Program-made: the position numbers and the translations under genes | Part shown: positions 7,394 to 16,908 of the stretch, in pieces | Numbering within the stretch: the first letter of the stretch is position 1 | How the letters are laid out: each line of letters begins with the position of its first letter | Origin: a virus | Length of the DNA: 39,030 bases | Reading direction: 5' to 3' (one strand) | UHGV virus genome: UHGV-1520160 | The notes under the pieces: generated by a model | Seen by the model: only the letters and a program-made list of their open reading frames with translations | Database searches by the model: none | What the model was told of the DNA's origin: nothing

Positions 7394-7612
7394 ATGTCCG
7401 CACTCGATAAAGCAATTAAAGCCGCTGGCTCTGCCAGAAAGCTCAGCATCGCGCTTGGTGTGACGAGTATGTCTGTAAGTCATTGGAAGAATCGTGACCA
7501 AGGGATCGTCCCGCCAAGCTATATCTTCCCGATTTTCAAAATGACAGGCGTAACCCCCCACGAGCTGCGCCCTGATCTCTATCCAAATCCCACTGACGGA
7601 TTACCAAAGTAG
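7394..7612 (+). CDS. Cro-like HTH regulator (YdaS-type)
   Basis: 72 aa, HTH segment ARKLSIALGVTSMSVSHWKNR, conserved ELRPDL near the C-terminus; divergent from the repressor; RBS ggagaag upstream. Confidence 0.65.
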   Translation: MSALDKAIKAAGSARKLSIALGVTSMSVSHWKNRDQGIVPPSYIFPIFKMTGVTPHELRPDLYPNPTDGLPK

Positions 7613-7623
7613 GAGCACTGACA

Positions 7624-8181
7624 ATGCAAACACTTTCTTTTCAACAGAATAACAGAGCGCCATCAGAGCACCTGAAATTCCAGTATCAACACAGTGAGGC
7701 TGAAGGCCAGCCGGTCGATCACCGGGCTATCTGTTCTGCCGTCCGCGCCTGGGCGGCGGCAGAGGGCCGCGTGGCGGTCGCTCTGGCGATTAAAGAGGCT
7801 GCCGAACAGGCCGAGCTTGACAGCATTGACATGACCGGCAGCGCCGATGTGTGGAACGTGAAGCTGTTTCGCTGGCTGGACAACCACGAGAAATCACCGG
7901 CCTACCGGGCGAACGTCGAGCAGCTGGCGCCGGTAATAATTTCGGTTCTGCCGCTGGCGTACCGGGATCGCGTGATTAAGCACGACTGCTTTGCGGTTCG
8001 TGTCGCCAGGTCGGTGAAAGAAGACGCTGAGGCGATACAGGCTGTCGTCCTCAAAGCCCCCAGACACGAACGGATGAAGGAAATCAGCGAGAGCATCGTA
8101 GCCAAGCTCTACCTGGACGGACCTGATTCTGTGGCGCCCATTATGGCGATGGTTACAACGATGCTGGGTGGTGCGCTATGA
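7624..8181 (+). CDS. YdaT-like protein at the cII position
   Basis: 185 aa ORF immediately after the Cro-like gene, the same order as racR-ydaS-ydaT in Rac. Family call from gene order and loose recollection. Confidence 0.4.
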   Translation: MQTLSFQQNNRAPSEHLKFQYQHSEAEGQPVDHRAICSAVRAWAAAEGRVAVALAIKEAAEQAELDSIDMTGSADVWNVKLFRWLDNHEKSPAYRANVEQLAPVIISVLPLAYRDRVIKHDCFAVRVARSVKEDAEAIQAVVLKAPRHERMKEISESIVAKLYLDGPDSVAPIMAMVTTMLGGAL

Positions 8182-8265: not shown

Positions 8266-9177
8266 ATGTCAAATACCGCTGAAATATTCAAATTCCCCAC
8301 ACAGCAGGGGAAACAGGAGAGCAGCATGGCTGAACTGGAGAAAGGCTATTTGCGCCTGGCCAACCAGATTCAGGATGCCCTGTGTATCGTCGAACTATCC
8401 GGGCGCGAGTTCCGGGTGCTGAATGCTATCGTTCGTCTGACCTATGGCTGGTCTAAGAGTTCTGACCGCATCGCCAATAGCCTCATTGCAGATAAAACGA
8501 CGCTGAAGGTGAAACACGTCTCTGAAGCCGTGTTGAGCCTTGCCTATCGGAACATCATCATCCTGCGCCGCATTGGGCAAACCAGATACATAGGGATTAA
8601 TACCAGCCTGGATAAATGGGCGTATACCAAGCCAAATTGCATGAAGTGTCCAGCGGTGTTTCCTGCTGCTGAAGTTGTCACATGGGTTATTACCATCCCT
8701 GAATTCAGGGATAGCAATTTTACCCCTTCAATCATCCCTGAAAACGGGGATAACCATCCCCAAAAACAGGGAGAGGTATCCCTGAAAACAGGGAACACCA
8801 AAGACATTCTTCCAAATACAAATATAAATACAGATCTAACCCCCTCTAATCCCCCAAAGGGGAAGGGTAAGTTTGACCCGCTGACGATTCCCGTTCCTGA
8901 GTGGCTTGATTCTGTGTCCTGGAGTGAGTGGGTGGCCTACCGCCAACAGTCTGGCAAAGCCATCAAGACCGAAATGACGGTCACCAAAGCATTCAAGTTG
9001 CTCAAGGCTTGCCTGGACGCTGGGCATGACCCCGTTGATGTGATCAACACCAGTATCGCCAACGGGTACCAGGGACTGTTTAAACCGAAGTTCGCTCTCA
9101 ACGCTCGCAAAACGGGCAGGGATGTGAACCGCATTTCTGAGCCAGACAAAACAATCCCACCCGGATTCAGGGGGTAA
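8266..9177 (+). CDS. replication initiation protein, lambda O-like N-terminal domain
   Basis: ORF trimmed to the ATG at 8266 (GGAGA RBS). N-terminus MSNTAEIFKFP...ELEKGYLRLANQI...SGREFRVLNAIVRLTYGWSK matches recalled lambda O (MTNTAKILNF...DLDDGYARLSNML...RQFKVLLAILRKTYGWNK). Iterons lie inside the gene. Confidence 0.8.
   Translation: MSNTAEIFKFPTQQGKQESSMAELEKGYLRLANQIQDALCIVELSGREFRVLNAIVRLTYGWSKSSDRIANSLIADKTTLKVKHVSEAVLSLAYRNIIILRRIGQTRYIGINTSLDKWAYTKPNCMKCPAVFPAAEVVTWVITIPEFRDSNFTPSIIPENGDNHPQKQGEVSLKTGNTKDILPNTNINTDLTPSNPPKGKGKFDPLTIPVPEWLDSVSWSEWVAYRQQSGKAIKTEMTVTKAFKLLKACLDAGHDPVDVINTSIANGYQGLFKPKFALNARKTGRDVNRISEPDKTIPPGFRG
8695..8795. repeat. replication origin iterons: four copies of palindromic ATCCCT-N4-6-AGGGA, followed by an AT-rich stretch
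   Basis: atccctgaattcagggat 8695..8712; atccctgaaaacggggat 8734..8751; atccccaaaaacagggag 8756..8773; atccctgaaaacagggaa 8778..8795. AT-rich run caaatacaaatataaatacag at about 8813..8833. Same layout as ori-lambda inside O. Confidence 0.65.
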
Positions 9178-9179
9178 GC

Positions 9180-9518
9180 ATGCCAAGACCAAATACACCA
9201 GAAGAGCAGGCGGCACTTATCCGGGTGATCATCGAAGAGGTGAAAATCCGTGGACGCTTAACCGTTAGCGAGGCATCACAGATGTTGTCGCTGCATCGTC
9301 AGACTGCTGAGAAGTATTTCCGCGTAGCAGCCGAACGCGGCGAACTCATTCGTTACGGTCGTCTAGGTTTGTTCAGGGACCCAAAGGCTGTAATTGATTT
9401 CGATCTCCAACGATTCTCATACGGTTCGAGTAAGCCTCTGATTGAGTTACCAGCAGATTTTCGGGGAAGTGCGGTTATGCGTCGGGTTATAGATATCGTG
9501 GGGAGGATGCCAGCATGA
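9180..9518 (+). CDS. hypothetical protein (112 aa) in the position of a replication partner (lambda P slot)
   Basis: ORF track; aggggg RBS; possible HTH (LTVSEASQMLSLHRQTAEKYF). No resemblance to lambda P recalled. Confidence 0.4.
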   Translation: MPRPNTPEEQAALIRVIIEEVKIRGRLTVSEASQMLSLHRQTAEKYFRVAAERGELIRYGRLGLFRDPKAVIDFDLQRFSYGSSKPLIELPADFRGSAVMRRVIDIVGRMPA

Positions 9519-9710: not shown

Positions 9711-9917
9711 ATGATTGCTGCAAACTACACAGTCAATCTCTACTGCGACTGCGATGAGTGCACCGGTAAGCAATGGGGAAGCCCAGATTTTGCCGAGTAC
9801 ATTGGAAATTCATGGTCTGGCTGCGCTAAAGAGGCGCGGCCACATGGCTGGCGTATCAGCAAGGATAGAACGCGAGCGTTCGCGCCAGGTCACAAGATTT
9901 CGAGGACTAACCCATGA
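9711..9917 (+). CDS. hypothetical Cys-rich protein (68 aa)
   Basis: ORF track; CDCDEC motif plus a further Cys; gggggattgag RBS; coupled to neighbours. Confidence 0.4.
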   Translation: MIAANYTVNLYCDCDECTGKQWGSPDFAEYIGNSWSGCAKEARPHGWRISKDRTRAFAPGHKISRTNP

Positions 9918-10285
9918 CAACTATTACCAAAAAGCAACGCGCAGAGCTACGCATGAAGTTTGGCGGTCGCTGTACTTATTGTGGATGCGAACTACCAGAG
10001 AAAGGCTGGCATGCTTACCATGTAAAACCGGTCATTCGTTTTGATGGAAATATGCTTCACCAGGAACGTGACGATATATCAAACATGGTTCCAGCATGCC
10101 ACCCATGCAATCTGCACAAGCATTGCAGTAGCCTGGAAGATTACCGGCGAATTATCGGTGATGGTCGTCGTGAATTCCTTGTGTCCGGGAAAGGCAAAGC
10201 GCTGGTTCGTATGGGATTGGTTGAAATGAAATCTGACCCAGTGGTGTTCTGGTTCGAAAAATATCAAGAAGGAGCGTCAGCATGA
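9914..10285 (+). CDS. HNH endonuclease
   Basis: CTYCGC...HAYHVKPV...ACHPCNLHKH: Cys pairs with His-Asn-His spacing typical of HNH nucleases. Confidence 0.65.
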   Translation: MTTITKKQRAELRMKFGGRCTYCGCELPEKGWHAYHVKPVIRFDGNMLHQERDDISNMVPACHPCNLHKHCSSLEDYRRIIGDGRREFLVSGKGKALVRMGLVEMKSDPVVFWFEKYQEGASA

Positions 10286-16346: not shown

Positions 16347-16858
16347 AAATTAATCCGGGTCTTATAGGCGTTGTTGTTATTGCTGTCCTTTCGGTCGCTC
16401 TCGCTAAGAGTTGCTCCAACGCCAGTCGCCTTCAGAGCGATAACGACGTTCTGCGAAGTGACAACTCTATGCAGGGGCAGGTGATCGCCACCCAGGCATT
16501 CAACTTCAATCGATTCAATCAGGTTGCAGAACATGCCAACAGGCTAAACTCCCTGATCGACACCAGCACCGAAGAAACTGTAATCGAATACCGGGAGATT
16601 CTCCGCCGTGAAAAAACCTGTGATCTGCCTGTTCCTGCTGACATTGCTGGTGGGCTGCTCGAATACGCGTACCGTTTACGTTCCAGCGCAATGCACGCCG
16701 ATACCGACGGACCTGACGCAGCCGATGATAGTACCGCTGCCGCCGGCTCAATAACGTACTGCCAGGCTGTACTCTGGATTAAGCCGCTGCTGGCCGTGAT
16801 TGAAAAGGGCAATAACAATTTCGCTGGAATTCGTCAAATAGAGAGCGAGCGTCAATAG
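16343..16858 (+). CDS. Rz-like inner-membrane spanin
   Basis: ORF 16325..16858 trimmed to the ATG at 16343 (ATGA overlap with the lysozyme stop); N-terminal TM (LIGVVVIAVLSVALA) and coiled-coil body. Confidence 0.65.
   Translation: MKINPGLIGVVVIAVLSVALAKSCSNASRLQSDNDVLRSDNSMQGQVIATQAFNFNRFNQVAEHANRLNSLIDTSTEETVIEYREILRREKTCDLPVPADIAGGLLEYAYRLRSSAMHADTDGPDAADDSTAAAGSITYCQAVLWIKPLLAVIEKGNNNFAGIRQIESERQ
16608..16754 (+). CDS. Rz1-like outer-membrane lipoprotein spanin embedded in Rz (+1 frame)
   Basis: Manual translation from GTG at 16608: (M)KKPVICLFLLTLLVGCSNTRTVYVPAQCTPIPTDLTQPMIVPLPPAQ; lipobox LVGC and Pro-rich mature part; GGGAG 10 nt upstream. Confidence 0.6.
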   Translation: MKKPVICLFLLTLLVGCSNTRTVYVPAQCTPIPTDLTQPMIVPLPPAQ

Positions 16859-16861
16859 TCT

Positions 16862-16908
16862 TTATCCCTAGCAAGGGATAAAGCAACCATTATCCCCGCT
16901 AAGGGATA
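16862..16908. repeat. two tandem palindromes TTATCCCT-AGCA-AGGGATAA and TATCCCC-GCTA-AGGGATA resembling the ori iteron half-sites
   Basis: ttatccctagcaagggataa at 16862..16881 and ttatccccgctaagggata at 16890..16908; compare ori iterons ATCCCT...AGGGA at 8695..8795. Confidence 0.4.

What the first reader, a model, noticed from the sequence alone, without database searches (positions are those of the whole stretch)
8695..8835. Lambda-like origin inside the O-like gene: four palindromic iterons plus AT-rich tract
Four copies of ATCCCT-N4-6-AGGGA at 8695, 8734, 8756 and 8778, followed by an AT-rich run, lie within the coding sequence of the O-like initiator, mirroring ori-lambda. The O-like protein has a different C-terminal half from lambda O, and no lambda-P-like gene follows (only a 112-aa protein), so the helicase-loading route probably differs from lambda.
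Basis: partly seen in the sequence, partly recalled or inferred. Interest (0 to 1): 0.45.

Follow-up and report, generated by a model that had tools for sequence, protein, structure and literature searches.

The report
Lambda-type origin, initiator with DnaT-like tail
This E. coli prophage has a textbook lambda-style replication origin inside its initiator gene. The initiator ends in a copy of the last ~20 residues of the host restart protein DnaT, and the phage lacks the DnaC-type helicase-loader gene that accompanies this tail in most relatives, so it probably borrows the host's DnaC.

Summary
Four 17-18 bp palindromic iterons (8695, 8734, 8756, 8778; spacing 39/22/22) and a 40-nt AT-rich tract (GC 22.5%) lie inside an intact 303-aa O-like gene (8266-9177). 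Its N-terminal domain is 40% identical to lambda O. The iterons nearly match lambda's and are conserved in relatives.

- **C-terminal half.** It is a three-helix domain common in phage initiators, plus a tail (RDVNRISEPDKTIPPGFRG) about 65% identical to the extreme C-terminus of host DnaT.
- **Tail tracks loader.** In relatives the tail, not the rest of the protein, tracks the loader gene. DnaT-like tail pairs with an EcDnaC-like ATPase 2 nt downstream (16/16 genome loci, 73/79 viral loci). Lambda-O-like or HWN tails pair with P-like loaders. KDYG tails pair with phiP27-type DnaC.
- **Host parallel.** E. coli dnaT-dnaC has the same stop+2-nt+ATG layout and nearly the same junction DNA as the Gifsy-2 O/dnaC-like junction.
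- **This window is an exception.** The loader gene is missing, the DUF977 gene follows directly, and no P, DnaC-type or phiP27-type loader homologue exists anywhere in the window.

Best reading: a functional lambda-type origin whose initiator recruits host DnaB-DnaC through the DnaT-like tail. That last step is inferred, not shown. It is a new variant of a known kind.

The parts
8266..9177 (+). O-like replication initiator gene, 303 aa. RefSeq annotates the identical protein as 'replication protein'.
   Evidence: ORF list. Pfam PF04492 matches residues 21-118. phrog_678 'replication initiation O-like' matches residues 1-298. The identical protein is WP_029403925.1 / P0012.
8326..8619 (+). Codes for the N-terminal lambda-O-type iteron-binding domain (residues 21-118).
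   Evidence: It is 40% identical to lambda O.
8695..8712 (.). Iteron 1, a perfect 18-bp palindrome ATCCCTGAATTCAGGGAT.
8734..8751 (.). Iteron 2, ATCCCTGAAAACGGGGAT.
8756..8773 (.). Iteron 3, ATCCCCAAAAACAGGGAG.
8778..8795 (.). Iteron 4, ATCCCTGAAAACAGGGAA.
8800..8840 (.). AT-rich tract, the presumed unwinding element. It corresponds in position to the AT-rich region right of the lambda iterons.
   Evidence: GC is 22.5% at 8800-8839. Lambda comparison.
8849..8864 (.). Short palindrome ATCCCCCAAAGGGGAA with iteron-like half-sites, just right of the AT-rich tract.
   Evidence: It is conserved about 70 bp after the last iteron in most related loci. Its function was not tested.
8869..9090 (+). Codes for a three-helix C-terminal domain (residues 202-275, KFDP...SIANGYQGLFKPK) that is widespread in phage and prophage initiators.
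   Evidence: A profile search finds 2064 cluster representatives at E<=1e-3. The AF2 model has pLDDT 95.3 and three helices. Foldseek matches phage replisome organizers in BFVD and nothing significant in PDB.
9091..9174 (+). Codes for the C-terminal tail. Its core, R285-G303 (9118-9174, RDVNRISEPDKTIPPGFRG), matches the last 19 residues of E. coli DnaT.
   Evidence: phmmer against PDB DnaT chains 2ru8, 6aep and 9zbt. NCBIfam NF002770 positions 154-179. hhalign gives 65% identity, E 3.5e-9. The same invariant positions are seen in DnaT orthologues and in the phage family.
9175..9182 (+). Junction: O stop TAA, then GC, then the ATG of the next gene. Most relatives have the start of a DnaC-type loader gene at this spot.
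   Evidence: Similarity to the loader-bearing relative L007 ends at the stop codon, and similarity to L008 starts there.
9180..9518 (+). DUF977 gene (112 aa, DNA-binding-like). It sits at the position of lambda ren and is not a helicase loader.
   Evidence: Pfam DUF977 5e-15. phrog_2391. It follows DnaC-type loaders in Gifsy-2 and L058, and a P-type loader in L008.
7394..8181 (+). Upstream cro-like (YdaS, 7394-7612) and cII-like (YdaT, 7624-8181) genes. Rightward early transcription would run through them into O and the origin.

Best explanation
The region is a bona fide lambda-type phage origin embedded in its own initiator gene.

The proposed mechanism has three steps:
1. Dimers of the O-like protein bind the four dyad-symmetric iterons through the lambda-O-type N-terminal domain. 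This step rests on homology.
2. They assemble a nucleoprotein complex and destabilise the adjacent AT-rich tract at 8800-8840. This step is inferred by analogy with lambda.
3. Helicase delivery differs from lambda. The initiator's C-terminal half is a three-helix 'organizer' domain followed by a flexible tail. That tail is a near copy of the last ~20 residues of the host replication-restart protein DnaT.

In relatives this tail is paired with an EcDnaC-like AAA+ loader encoded 2 nt downstream. This mirrors the host dnaT-dnaC operon. Initiators with the same domains but other tails are paired with other loader families.

The proposed reading is that the tail is the element that engages a DnaC-type loader, or the DnaB-DnaC complex. 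Because this prophage has lost the phage loader gene, its initiator would recruit the host DnaB6-DnaC6 complex directly to the unwound origin. No P protein would be involved, and presumably there would be no need for the DnaK/DnaJ/GrpE release step that lambda requires. The tail-to-DnaC contact and origin firing are inferred, not shown.
For: **Origin**
- Iterons far exceed chance and are phased 22 bp apart.
- An AT-rich tract follows them.
- The N-terminal domain is homologous to lambda O.
- Iteron and post-iteron DNA resemble ori-lambda.
- Arrays of 4-7 iterons are conserved at the same site across genera.

**Tail**
- Only the last 21-25 residues match DnaT.
- The pattern of invariant residues is the same in DnaT orthologues (kRD.N..SePD..IPpGFRG) and in the phage family (R-D-V-N-x-x-S-x-P-x-x-x-I-P-x-G-F-R-G).

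**Tail and loader go together**
- In genome contigs, 16/16 DnaT-tail initiators are followed by an EcDnaC-like protein, and 9/9 with lambda-O-like or HWN tails are followed by a P-like protein.
- L023 shares 82% of both the N-terminal and helical domains with the window protein, yet has a lambda-O-type tail and a P-like loader. L026 shares only 34% of the N-terminal domain, yet has a DnaT-like tail and a DnaC-like loader.
- In IMG/VR, 73 of 79 informative loci have a DnaC-like gene immediately downstream.
- Pfam confirms the downstream genes as IstB_IS21/Bac_DnaA AAA+.
- Gifsy-1/-2, SPN3UB and Rac YdaU-YdaV show the same pairing.
- KDYG tails pair with a different DnaC subfamily, the phiP27 type.
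- Reciprocal case: a prophage protein with the true DnaT three-helix domain but a non-DnaT tail is followed by P.

**Host parallel**
- In K-12, dnaT and dnaC are arranged as stop + 2 nt + ATG. The junction DNA is GGATTCAGAGGGTAACGATGAAAAACGT, against GGATTCAGGGGGTAACGATGAAAAACGT in Gifsy-2.
- EcDnaC is 47-52% identical to the phage loaders over its full length.

**Loader-less forms persist**
- The window allele is followed directly by DUF977 in every displayed context among the 19 contigs that carry it.
- The same junction occurs with a divergent 424-aa O allele (L102).
- An independent junction, O then DUF1627-like, occurs in L101.
- The isolated Klebsiella phage BUCT711 has a DnaT-tail initiator and no DnaC-type, P-type or phiP27-type loader homologue in its complete genome.

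**Open question in the field**
Against: - No experiment or structure shows that the tail binds DnaC, or anything else.
- The tail-coding DNA lies directly beside the loader gene. Co-inheritance by linkage, with mosaic breakpoints inside the conserved SIANGYQGLFKPK-coding stretch, could produce the correlation without any physical contact.
- The counted loci are phylogenetically related, so the counts are not independent events.
- Keck and colleagues propose that the DnaT N-terminal domain, not the tail, recruits DnaB/DnaC. Removing DnaT residues 154-179 changes ssDNA affinity about two-fold, so the tail may contribute to DNA binding instead.
- Most relatives keep their own loader. 17 of 19 of those loaders carry Gly at the dnaC809 position. 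This suggests wild-type host DnaC may not be an equivalent substitute.
- Whether this prophage replicates at all is unknown.
Confidence: 0.6

Rival explanations
1. The replication module is defective. The origin and O gene are intact, but loss of the phage DnaC-type loader has left the prophage unable to replicate autonomously. The DnaT-like tail is then a leftover with no partner.
For: Most relatives (16/16 genome loci, 73/79 viral loci) keep the loader immediately downstream. 17 of 19 phage loaders have Gly at the position of the dnaC809 bypass mutation, so they may do something that wild-type host DnaC cannot. The arrangement is rare: only 3 of 5426 complete E. coli genomes hold the full-length match.
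Against: The O ORF and its tail are intact in every copy seen. The same junction occurs with an O allele whose C-terminal domain is only 83% identical (L102), and a second independent loader-less junction exists (L101). The isolated phage BUCT711 carries a DnaT-tail initiator and no DnaC-type, P-type or phiP27-type loader homologue. ORFs of the sizes expected for the late genes (terminase, portal, capsid, tail) are open in the window, though most were not annotated here. The junction is a clean gene-boundary swap that keeps the 2-nt coupling to the next gene.
Confidence: 0.2
2. The tail works, but its partner is not DnaC. It might bind ssDNA, SSB, PriA or PriB. The initiator would then act as a DnaT surrogate that nucleates a restart-type primosome on the unwound origin, and DnaC-DnaB would arrive indirectly.
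For: The tail is shared with DnaT, which contacts PriA, PriB and ssDNA in the preprimosome. Truncating DnaT at residue 153 lowers ssDNA affinity and cooperativity. No DnaT-DnaC contact has ever been shown.
Against: In the solved preprimosome the contacts described are made by the DnaT three-helix domain and the linker. The mature model's DnaT chains stop at residue 154. The phage proteins lack that domain. When the true DnaT domain occurs in a prophage protein with a different tail, the partner gene is P. The tail follows the DnaC subfamily even across unrelated N-terminal domains: lambda-O type, YdaU type, and DnaT itself.
Confidence: 0.15
3. The loader is supplied in trans by another resident prophage that encodes a DnaC-type protein. 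The element would then depend on a helper rather than on host DnaC.
For: DnaC-type loaders are common in E. coli prophages such as Rac YdaV and Sakai Sp4, Sp10 and Sp12. Inter-prophage complementation of replication is documented in O157 (PMC2669165).
Against: The co-resident prophages of the host strains were not examined. BUCT711 is a free phage with no such gene. Host DnaC is about 49% identical to the phage loaders and is always present.
Confidence: 0.05

Closest known systems
ori-lambda with lambda O and P
   Same: Both have four dyad-symmetric iterons with TCCC(T/C)...(A/G)GGGA arms, followed by an AT-rich tract, all inside the initiator gene between the N- and C-terminal coding halves. 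The N-terminal domains are homologous at 40% identity. Both sit downstream of cro/cII-type genes.
   Different: The iteron spacer is 1 bp shorter here, and the first spacing is 39 bp. The C-terminal half is unrelated to lambda O's. There is no P gene. The tail is DnaT-like rather than lambda's ...LDLTNTDWIYGVDL.
Gifsy-1/Gifsy-2/SPN3UB O ('PrpO') plus a DnaC-type loader, and the other lambdoid prophages with DnaC-type loaders (PMC2669165)
   Same: The initiator architecture is the same. The C-terminal domain plus tail is 82% identical. The iteron type is the same, and a DUF977 gene lies downstream.
   Different: Those phages encode a 249-aa EcDnaC-like ATPase 2 nt after O. The window does not.
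Rac prophage YdaU-YdaV (E. coli K-12)
   Same: YdaU carries the same helical domain and a DnaT-like tail (...RQVNTVSLPDSAIPPGFRG). It is followed by the DnaC-like YdaV.
   Different: YdaU has a DUF1376-type N-terminal domain, not the lambda-O type, and no lambda-like iterons were examined there. Its loader is present.
E. coli DnaT-DnaC (replication-restart adaptor and helicase loader)
   Same: The C-terminal 19-23 residues of DnaT match the tail at 65% identity. The gene order tail-then-dnaC is the same, with a 2-nt spacer and near-identical junction DNA. DnaC is 47-52% identical to the phage loaders.
   Different: The DnaT N-terminal domain and its three-helix ssDNA-binding domain (PF17948) are not detectably related to the O-like protein. 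DnaT is recruited by PriA/PriB to forks, not to iterons.
DopC-DopE (domesticated lambda O/P-like pair, Brezellec et al. 2017, PMC5509034)
   Same: DopC is an O-like N-terminal domain fused to a DnaT C-terminal element, next to a helicase-loader gene.
   Different: DopC is reported to carry the DnaT C-terminal motif/domain of 2ru8, is paired with a P-like protein, has no iterons and is chromosomal. Here only the tail is shared, and the family partner is DnaC-type.
Iteron plasmids that rely on the host DnaB-DnaC complex (for example pSC101 RepA and R6K pi; from general knowledge, not checked here)
   Same: An iteron-binding initiator with no loader of its own would have to recruit the host helicase complex directly.
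   Different: Those origins also use DnaA boxes. None is found near this origin. The initiators are unrelated.

Membership tests
Lambda-type (O-type) iteron origin | Three or more phased direct repeats of about 18-19 bp, each with internal dyad symmetry | tested here: met
   Four copies with spacing 39/22/22. 11 strand-matches against 0.29 expected.
Lambda-type (O-type) iteron origin | AT-rich unwinding tract immediately to one side of the iterons | tested here: met
   GC is 22.5% at 8800-8839. The position matches lambda.
Lambda-type (O-type) iteron origin | Origin lies inside the initiator gene, in the linker between the N- and C-terminal domains | tested here: met
   The iterons encode residues about 144-177 of the 303-aa protein.
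Lambda-type (O-type) iteron origin | Initiator N-terminal domain homologous to lambda O (PF04492 / TIGR01610) | tested here: met
   E 1.3e-27 and 1.9e-26. 40% identity to lambda O.
Lambda-type (O-type) iteron origin | Iteron binding by the initiator and origin activity in vivo | not testable with these tools
   Needs EMSA or footprinting and plasmid replication assays.
Lambda O-P replication module | Initiator C-terminal domain of the lambda O type that binds P | tested here: not met
   No similarity to lambda O after residue about 120. No Pfam hit in the C-terminal half.
Lambda O-P replication module | P-type loader gene immediately downstream | tested here: not met
   The next gene is DUF977. 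tblastn with lambda P and an E. coli prophage P finds nothing (best E 0.17).
Gifsy/Rac-type initiator plus DnaC-type loader module | Initiator with the SIANG(Y/W)QGLF three-helix domain followed by a DnaT-like tail | tested here: met
   82% identical to Gifsy-1/-2 and SPN3UB, and 45% identical to YdaU, over the domain plus tail. Profile search.
Gifsy/Rac-type initiator plus DnaC-type loader module | EcDnaC-like AAA+ gene starting about 2 nt after the initiator stop codon | tested here: not met
   Absent from the window and from every displayed context among the 19 contigs with the identical protein. Present in 16/16 and 73/79 relatives.
DnaT (primosomal protein i) | Three-helix ssDNA-binding domain PF17948 | tested here: not met
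   Pfam finds it in DnaT but not in the O-like C-terminal domain. hhalign E 0.16. Foldseek of a pLDDT-95 model finds no DnaT chain.
DnaT (primosomal protein i) | DnaT N-terminal oligomerisation domain and acidic PriB-binding linker | tested here: not met
   No alignment outside the tail in phmmer or hhalign.
DnaT (primosomal protein i) | Conserved C-terminal tail RD(V/I)N..S.PD..IP.GFRG | tested here: met
   (65% identity, E 3.5e-9). The same invariant positions occur in both families.

The most novel reading that the evidence does not exclude
The last ~20 residues of DnaT are a portable peptide that engages DnaC-type loaders, and phage initiators share it. On this view the host dnaT-dnaC operon and the phage 'initiator tail plus dnaC' cassette have a common origin. 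Initiator tails in general (DnaT-like, lambda-O-like, HWN, KDYG) would be swappable address labels that decide which helicase loader an origin uses. Loader-less phages such as this one would then replicate by mimicking DnaT to capture the host DnaB-DnaC complex.
Probability: 0.4. Interest if true: 0.8.

Novelty: new variant of a known kind. Interest (0 to 1): 0.55.

Why it matters
The origin itself is ordinary for a lambdoid prophage.

The value lies in what the initiator's C-terminus suggests about two open questions. The first is how E. coli DnaT hands the DnaB-DnaC complex to a restart site. This is still unknown, and no DnaT-DnaC contact has been shown (PMC11087952, PMC13377028). The second is how mosaic phages keep initiators and helicase loaders matched.

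The comparison acts as a natural domain-swap series:
- The N-terminal and helical domains can stay the same while the tail and the loader change together.
- The only part DnaT shares with DnaC-linked phage initiators is the tail.

That makes a specific 19-residue peptide directly testable as the DnaC-recruiting element. It also predicts that this loader-less prophage, and the isolated phage BUCT711, depend on host dnaC but not on P-type chaperone release.

If the tail hypothesis is wrong, the finding reduces to a well-supported annotation: a lambda-type origin in a Gifsy-type replication module that has lost its loader.

Tried and rejected
- **Is the whole C-terminal half a DnaT C-terminal domain? 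No.** Pfam finds PF17948 in DnaT but not here. Profile comparison of the helical domain with DnaT is not significant (E 0.16). Foldseek of a high-confidence model against PDB finds no DnaT chain.
- **Full-length AF2 model.** It was unusable (mean pLDDT 34.7). Only the 74-residue helical domain, modelled with a broad alignment, gave a good model.
- **Word-indexed homology search with the C-terminal domain alone.** It returned only 11 short fragments. The full-length query and the exhaustive profile search were needed.
- **The search for related loci with the broad alignment A3.** The close-family alignment A1 was used instead, so the locus sets are biased towards Enterobacteriaceae.
- **Is the 112-aa protein a loader or a Ren homologue? 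No.** It is DUF977. It shows no similarity to lambda Ren and only a weak PHROG 'Ren-like' hit (6e-5). It co-occurs with both loader types.
- **DnaA boxes near the origin.** None found. The two in the window lie at 35.6 and 38.3 kb, at chance level.
- **Promoter and terminator scans around the origin.** They gave only chance-level or iteron-derived hits.
- **Prior reports.** Literature searches found none of a DnaT-like tail on Gifsy/Rac-type initiators: 'DnaT-like' gave 0 papers, and YdaU+YdaV+replication gave 0 papers. Only open-access papers and bioRxiv were searchable.
Full report
**1. The observation**

The sequence at 8680-8870 contains four 17-18 bp dyad-symmetric repeats:
- ATCCCTGAATTCAGGGAT (8695-8712)
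- ATCCCTGAAAACGGGGAT (8734-8751)
- ATCCCCAAAAACAGGGAG (8756-8773)
- ATCCCTGAAAACAGGGAA (8778-8795)

The pattern ATCCCY-N4-8-RGGGA matches 11 times (both strands) in the 39-kb window, against 0.29 expected. None of 100 shuffles reaches that number. The repeat finder recovers the four as one family with spacing 39, 22 and 22.

Immediately to the right, GC falls to 22.5% at 8800-8839. Everything lies in an ORF whose most likely start is the ATG at 8266 (303 aa, stop at 9177). A 112-aa ORF follows 2 nt later.

**2. What the window is**

The window is an E. coli prophage.
- The 1.4 kb around the finding is 99.9% identical to three of 5426 complete E. coli genomes. There the prophage sits next to kch, and the gene is annotated 'replication protein'.
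- The early region reads: RecE/RecT, kil-like, repressor, cro-like (YdaS), cII-like (YdaT), O-like, DUF977, small ORFs, HNH, DUF550, DinI, NinB-like, RusA, Q.
- After that come lysis genes and long open ORFs in the late region.

**3. The origin is homologous to ori-lambda**

- Residues 21-118 match Pfam Phage_rep_O (1.3e-27) and TIGR01610 (1.9e-26).
- The first 120 residues are 40% identical to lambda O (E 1e-22).
- The annotated lambda iterons (ATCCCTCAAAACGAGGGA, ATCCCCTAAAACGAGGGA and others) share the same arms. Their spacer is one base longer.
- The DNA after the fourth iteron is recognisably similar: lambda GGGGGACACAAAAGACACTATTAC against window CAGGGAACACCAAAGACATTCTTCC.
- In 15 related loci from Citrobacter, Kluyvera, Leclercia, Enterobacter, Salmonella (Gifsy-2) and others, 4-7 such iterons sit at the same place in the O gene, with the same 22-bp phasing and a single 39-bp gap. 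None lies elsewhere in the 5-8 kb loci.
- The protein alignment shows that the iteron-encoded linker varies by whole repeat units.

I regard the identification as a lambda-type origin as secure at the level of homology. Binding and firing are untested.

**4. The C-terminal half**

Beyond residue about 120 there is no similarity to lambda O and no Pfam hit. PHROG families covering the whole protein exist (phrog_678). A 'primosomal protein' PHROG matches residues 176-303.

Searching solved structures gave one kind of hit only: the last 25 residues align with the extreme C-terminus of DnaT (2ru8, 6aep, 9zbt). NCBIfam's DnaT model matches the same stretch. I verified the DnaT sequence I used against PDB 9zbt_D at 100% identity.

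A profile of 19 family C-termini aligns to DnaT only at residues 157-179. That alignment has 65% identity and E 3.5e-9:
- Window: RDVNRISEPDKTIPPGFRG
- DnaT: RDVNTVSEPDSQIPPGFRG

The invariant positions are the same in the phage family and in 104 DnaT orthologues. Some members of both families even share a GFRGAK ending.

The part between the origin-encoded linker and the tail (residues 202-275) is not a DnaT domain:
- hhalign against DnaT gives E 0.16.
- A pLDDT-95 three-helix model finds no DnaT chain and nothing significant in PDB.
- It does match many phage 'replisome organizer', 'replication protein' and DUF1376 models in BFVD.

An exhaustive profile search finds this domain in 2064 cluster representatives. 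It usually sits at the C-terminus of 250-300-aa proteins and is followed by variable tails.

Recognisable tail classes:
- DnaT-like (IPxGFRG)
- Lambda-O-like (LDFNNTDWIxG; compare lambda O ...LDLTNTDWIYGVDL)
- HWNSxExWxxF(I/L)
- KDYGxTExPxWA
- Several others

**5. The tail tracks the helicase loader**

Known phages carrying this tail have a DnaC-like ATPase of about 249 aa beginning 2 nt after the initiator stop codon. These include:
- Gifsy-1/-2, SPN3UB and Rac YdaU
- Phage vB_EcoS-683R6
- An E. coli prophage whose O gene is 95.5% identical to the window's

I scanned one genome per species with the family profile, then extracted ORFs and clustered them:

| Tail class | Loci | Gene immediately downstream |
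|---|---|---|
| DnaT-like | 16 of 16 | EcDnaC-like |
| Lambda-O-like or HWN | 9 of 9 | Lambda-P-like |

Two loci separate the tail from the rest of the protein:
- L023 has N-terminal and helical domains each 82% identical to the window protein, but a lambda-O-type tail and a P-like loader.
- L026 has only 34% N-terminal identity, but a DnaT-like tail and a DnaC-like loader.

Further support:
- Pfam confirms the downstream genes as IstB_IS21/Bac_DnaA AAA+ proteins.
- KDYG tails go with a different DnaC subfamily, the phiP27 type, which has a distinct N-terminus and is about 34% identical to EcDnaC.
- In a reciprocal case, an E. coli prophage protein that really contains the DnaT three-helix domain, but ends in a different tail, is followed by a P gene.

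The host itself shows the same layout. In K-12, dnaT is followed by dnaC after a 2-nt spacer. The junction DNA is almost the same as in Gifsy-2...GGATTCAGAGGGTAACGATGAAAAACGT... against ...GGATTCAGGGGGTAACGATGAAAAACGT... EcDnaC is 47-52% identical to the phage loaders over its full length. The similarity between the host operon and the phage cassette therefore runs continuously from the tail through the loader.

**6. The window is an exception**

Here the O stop codon (9175-9177) is followed by GC and then the ATG of DUF977. No DnaC-like or P-like sequence exists anywhere in the window (best tblastn E 0.17-0.9).
- Every displayed context among the 19 contigs that carry the identical protein shows the same arrangement.
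- Similarity to a loader-bearing relative ends exactly at the stop codon, and similarity to another prophage begins there. This is a gene-boundary mosaic junction.
- DUF977 is not a substitute loader. It follows DnaC-type loaders in Gifsy-2, SPN3UB and L058, and a P-type loader in L008.

Among 79 informative IMG/VR loci, 73 have the loader and 6 do not. The six are:
- Four copies of the window allele
- L102, a 424-aa O variant whose C-terminal domain is only 83% identical but has the same junction
- L101, an independent junction: O, then a DUF1627-like protein, then DUF977

The isolated Klebsiella phage BUCT711 has a YdaU-like initiator ending in ...RDVNTISRPDTEIPPGFRGGPAP. Its complete 38-kb genome has no DnaC-type, P-type or phiP27-type loader homologue. 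Loader-less DnaT-tail initiators therefore recur, and at least one belongs to a phage that was isolated and propagated.

**7. Mechanism**

Steps supported by homology:
- The initiator binds the iterons through the lambda-O-type domain.
- The AT-rich tract serves as the unwinding element.

Inferred steps:
- The tail engages a DnaC-type loader, or the DnaB-DnaC complex.
- In this prophage the partner is the host complex.

The main caveats:
- The tail is encoded right beside the loader gene, so linkage could mimic functional coupling.
- The counted loci are related to one another.
- No physical interaction has been shown.

The rivals are a replication-defective module, a tail that binds something else (ssDNA, SSB, PriA or PriB), and a loader supplied by another prophage.

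**8. Relation to what is known**

- Lambdoid prophages with lambda-type, DnaC-type or DnaB-type loaders are documented (PMC2669165).
- An O-like N-terminal domain fused to a DnaT C-terminal element has been described for the domesticated DopC-DopE pair, where the partner is P-like (PMC5509034).
- RefSeq's annotation of an E. coli genome already uses the name 'DnaT-like ssDNA-binding domain-containing protein' for some prophage proteins.
- I found no report that Gifsy/Rac-type initiators carry the DnaT tail, that tail class predicts loader class, or that loader-less variants exist. Only open-access literature could be searched.
- Recent work states that no direct DnaT-DnaC contact is known, and that the way the preprimosome recruits DnaB-DnaC is unknown.

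**9. Verdict**

The origin and initiator belong to a known kind. The DnaT-like tail combined with loss of the cognate loader is a new variant, and it offers a concrete, testable lead on DnaC recruitment. Interest is 0.55.

Noticed in passing
window 8849-8864: A short palindrome, ATCCCCCAAAGGGGAA, has iteron-like arms but only a 3-4 nt spacer. It lies just right of the AT-rich tract. It is conserved about 70 bp after the last iteron in most related O genes, which recalls the inverted repeat to the right of ori-lambda.
   Followed up: partly
window 8293-8310: An iteron-like sequence, TTCCCCACACAGCAGGGG, lies near the 5' end of the O gene. It is present at the same offset (+27) in several relatives (L007, L009, L012, L015, L021). 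It could be an autoregulatory site or simply conserved coding sequence.
   Followed up: no
window 16864-16907: Two palindromes, ATCCCTAGCAAGGGAT and ATCCCCGCTAAGGGAT, lie 28 bp apart just after the stop codon of the ORF ending at 16858. Their half-sites are the same as those of the origin iterons, but the spacer is shorter.
   Followed up: no
L003, L007, L009-L022, L026 (genes downstream of O), compared with L055 (K-12 dnaC): 17 of 19 phage DnaC-like loaders have Gly at the position of E. coli DnaC E176. That is exactly the dnaC809 (E176G) change, which lets DnaC load DnaB without the restart proteins. Only the two Rac-type loaders keep Glu. DnaC A84, the site of dnaC1331 that blocks the PriA/PriB/DnaT pathway, is invariant in all 19.
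   Followed up: partly
L055 (K-12 dnaT-dnaC) compared with L003 (Gifsy-2): The host dnaT/dnaC junction and the Gifsy-2 O/dnaC-like junction have the same stop + 2 nt + ATG layout and nearly identical DNA (TTCAG(A/G)GGGTAACGATGAAAAACGT). This suggests common ancestry or exchange between the host operon and the phage cassette.
   Followed up: partly
L102 2035-3309; proteins P0067, P0077-P0096: Some O variants of 424-426 aa carry an insert of about 120 residues (...GRIDIVVTDG.G..CGIELD...) between the origin-encoded linker and the C-terminal domain. Pfam finds no domain in the insert.
   Followed up: no
window 9711-10285: A 68-aa ORF and an HNH endonuclease gene (9914-10285) lie between the 64-aa ORF and the DUF550 gene. 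They are absent from otherwise near-identical prophages (L001, L048-L053), where DUF550 is 185 aa rather than 159 aa. This looks like an HNH insertion.
   Followed up: no
L143 (Klebsiella phage vB_KpnP_BUCT711) 4330-5091, minus strand: This isolated Uetakevirus encodes a 253-aa initiator with a YdaU-like N-terminus and a DnaT-like tail (RDVNTISRPDTEIPPGFRGGPAP). tblastn with DnaC-type, P-type and phiP27-type loader queries finds nothing in its 38-kb genome.
   Followed up: partly
protein P0188 (2075 aa): A very large protein holds eight separate matches to the helical-domain profile, an unusual repeated use of this small domain.
   Followed up: no
L008 1197-2109 (E. coli SC476 prophage): The initiator region is annotated as two ORFs. 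The second carries a true DnaT-type three-helix domain (GKFSMADSWLP...YWESEGKVFTQIQWEQKFAR), has a non-DnaT tail and is followed by a P gene. The split may be a frameshift in an originally single initiator gene.
   Followed up: no
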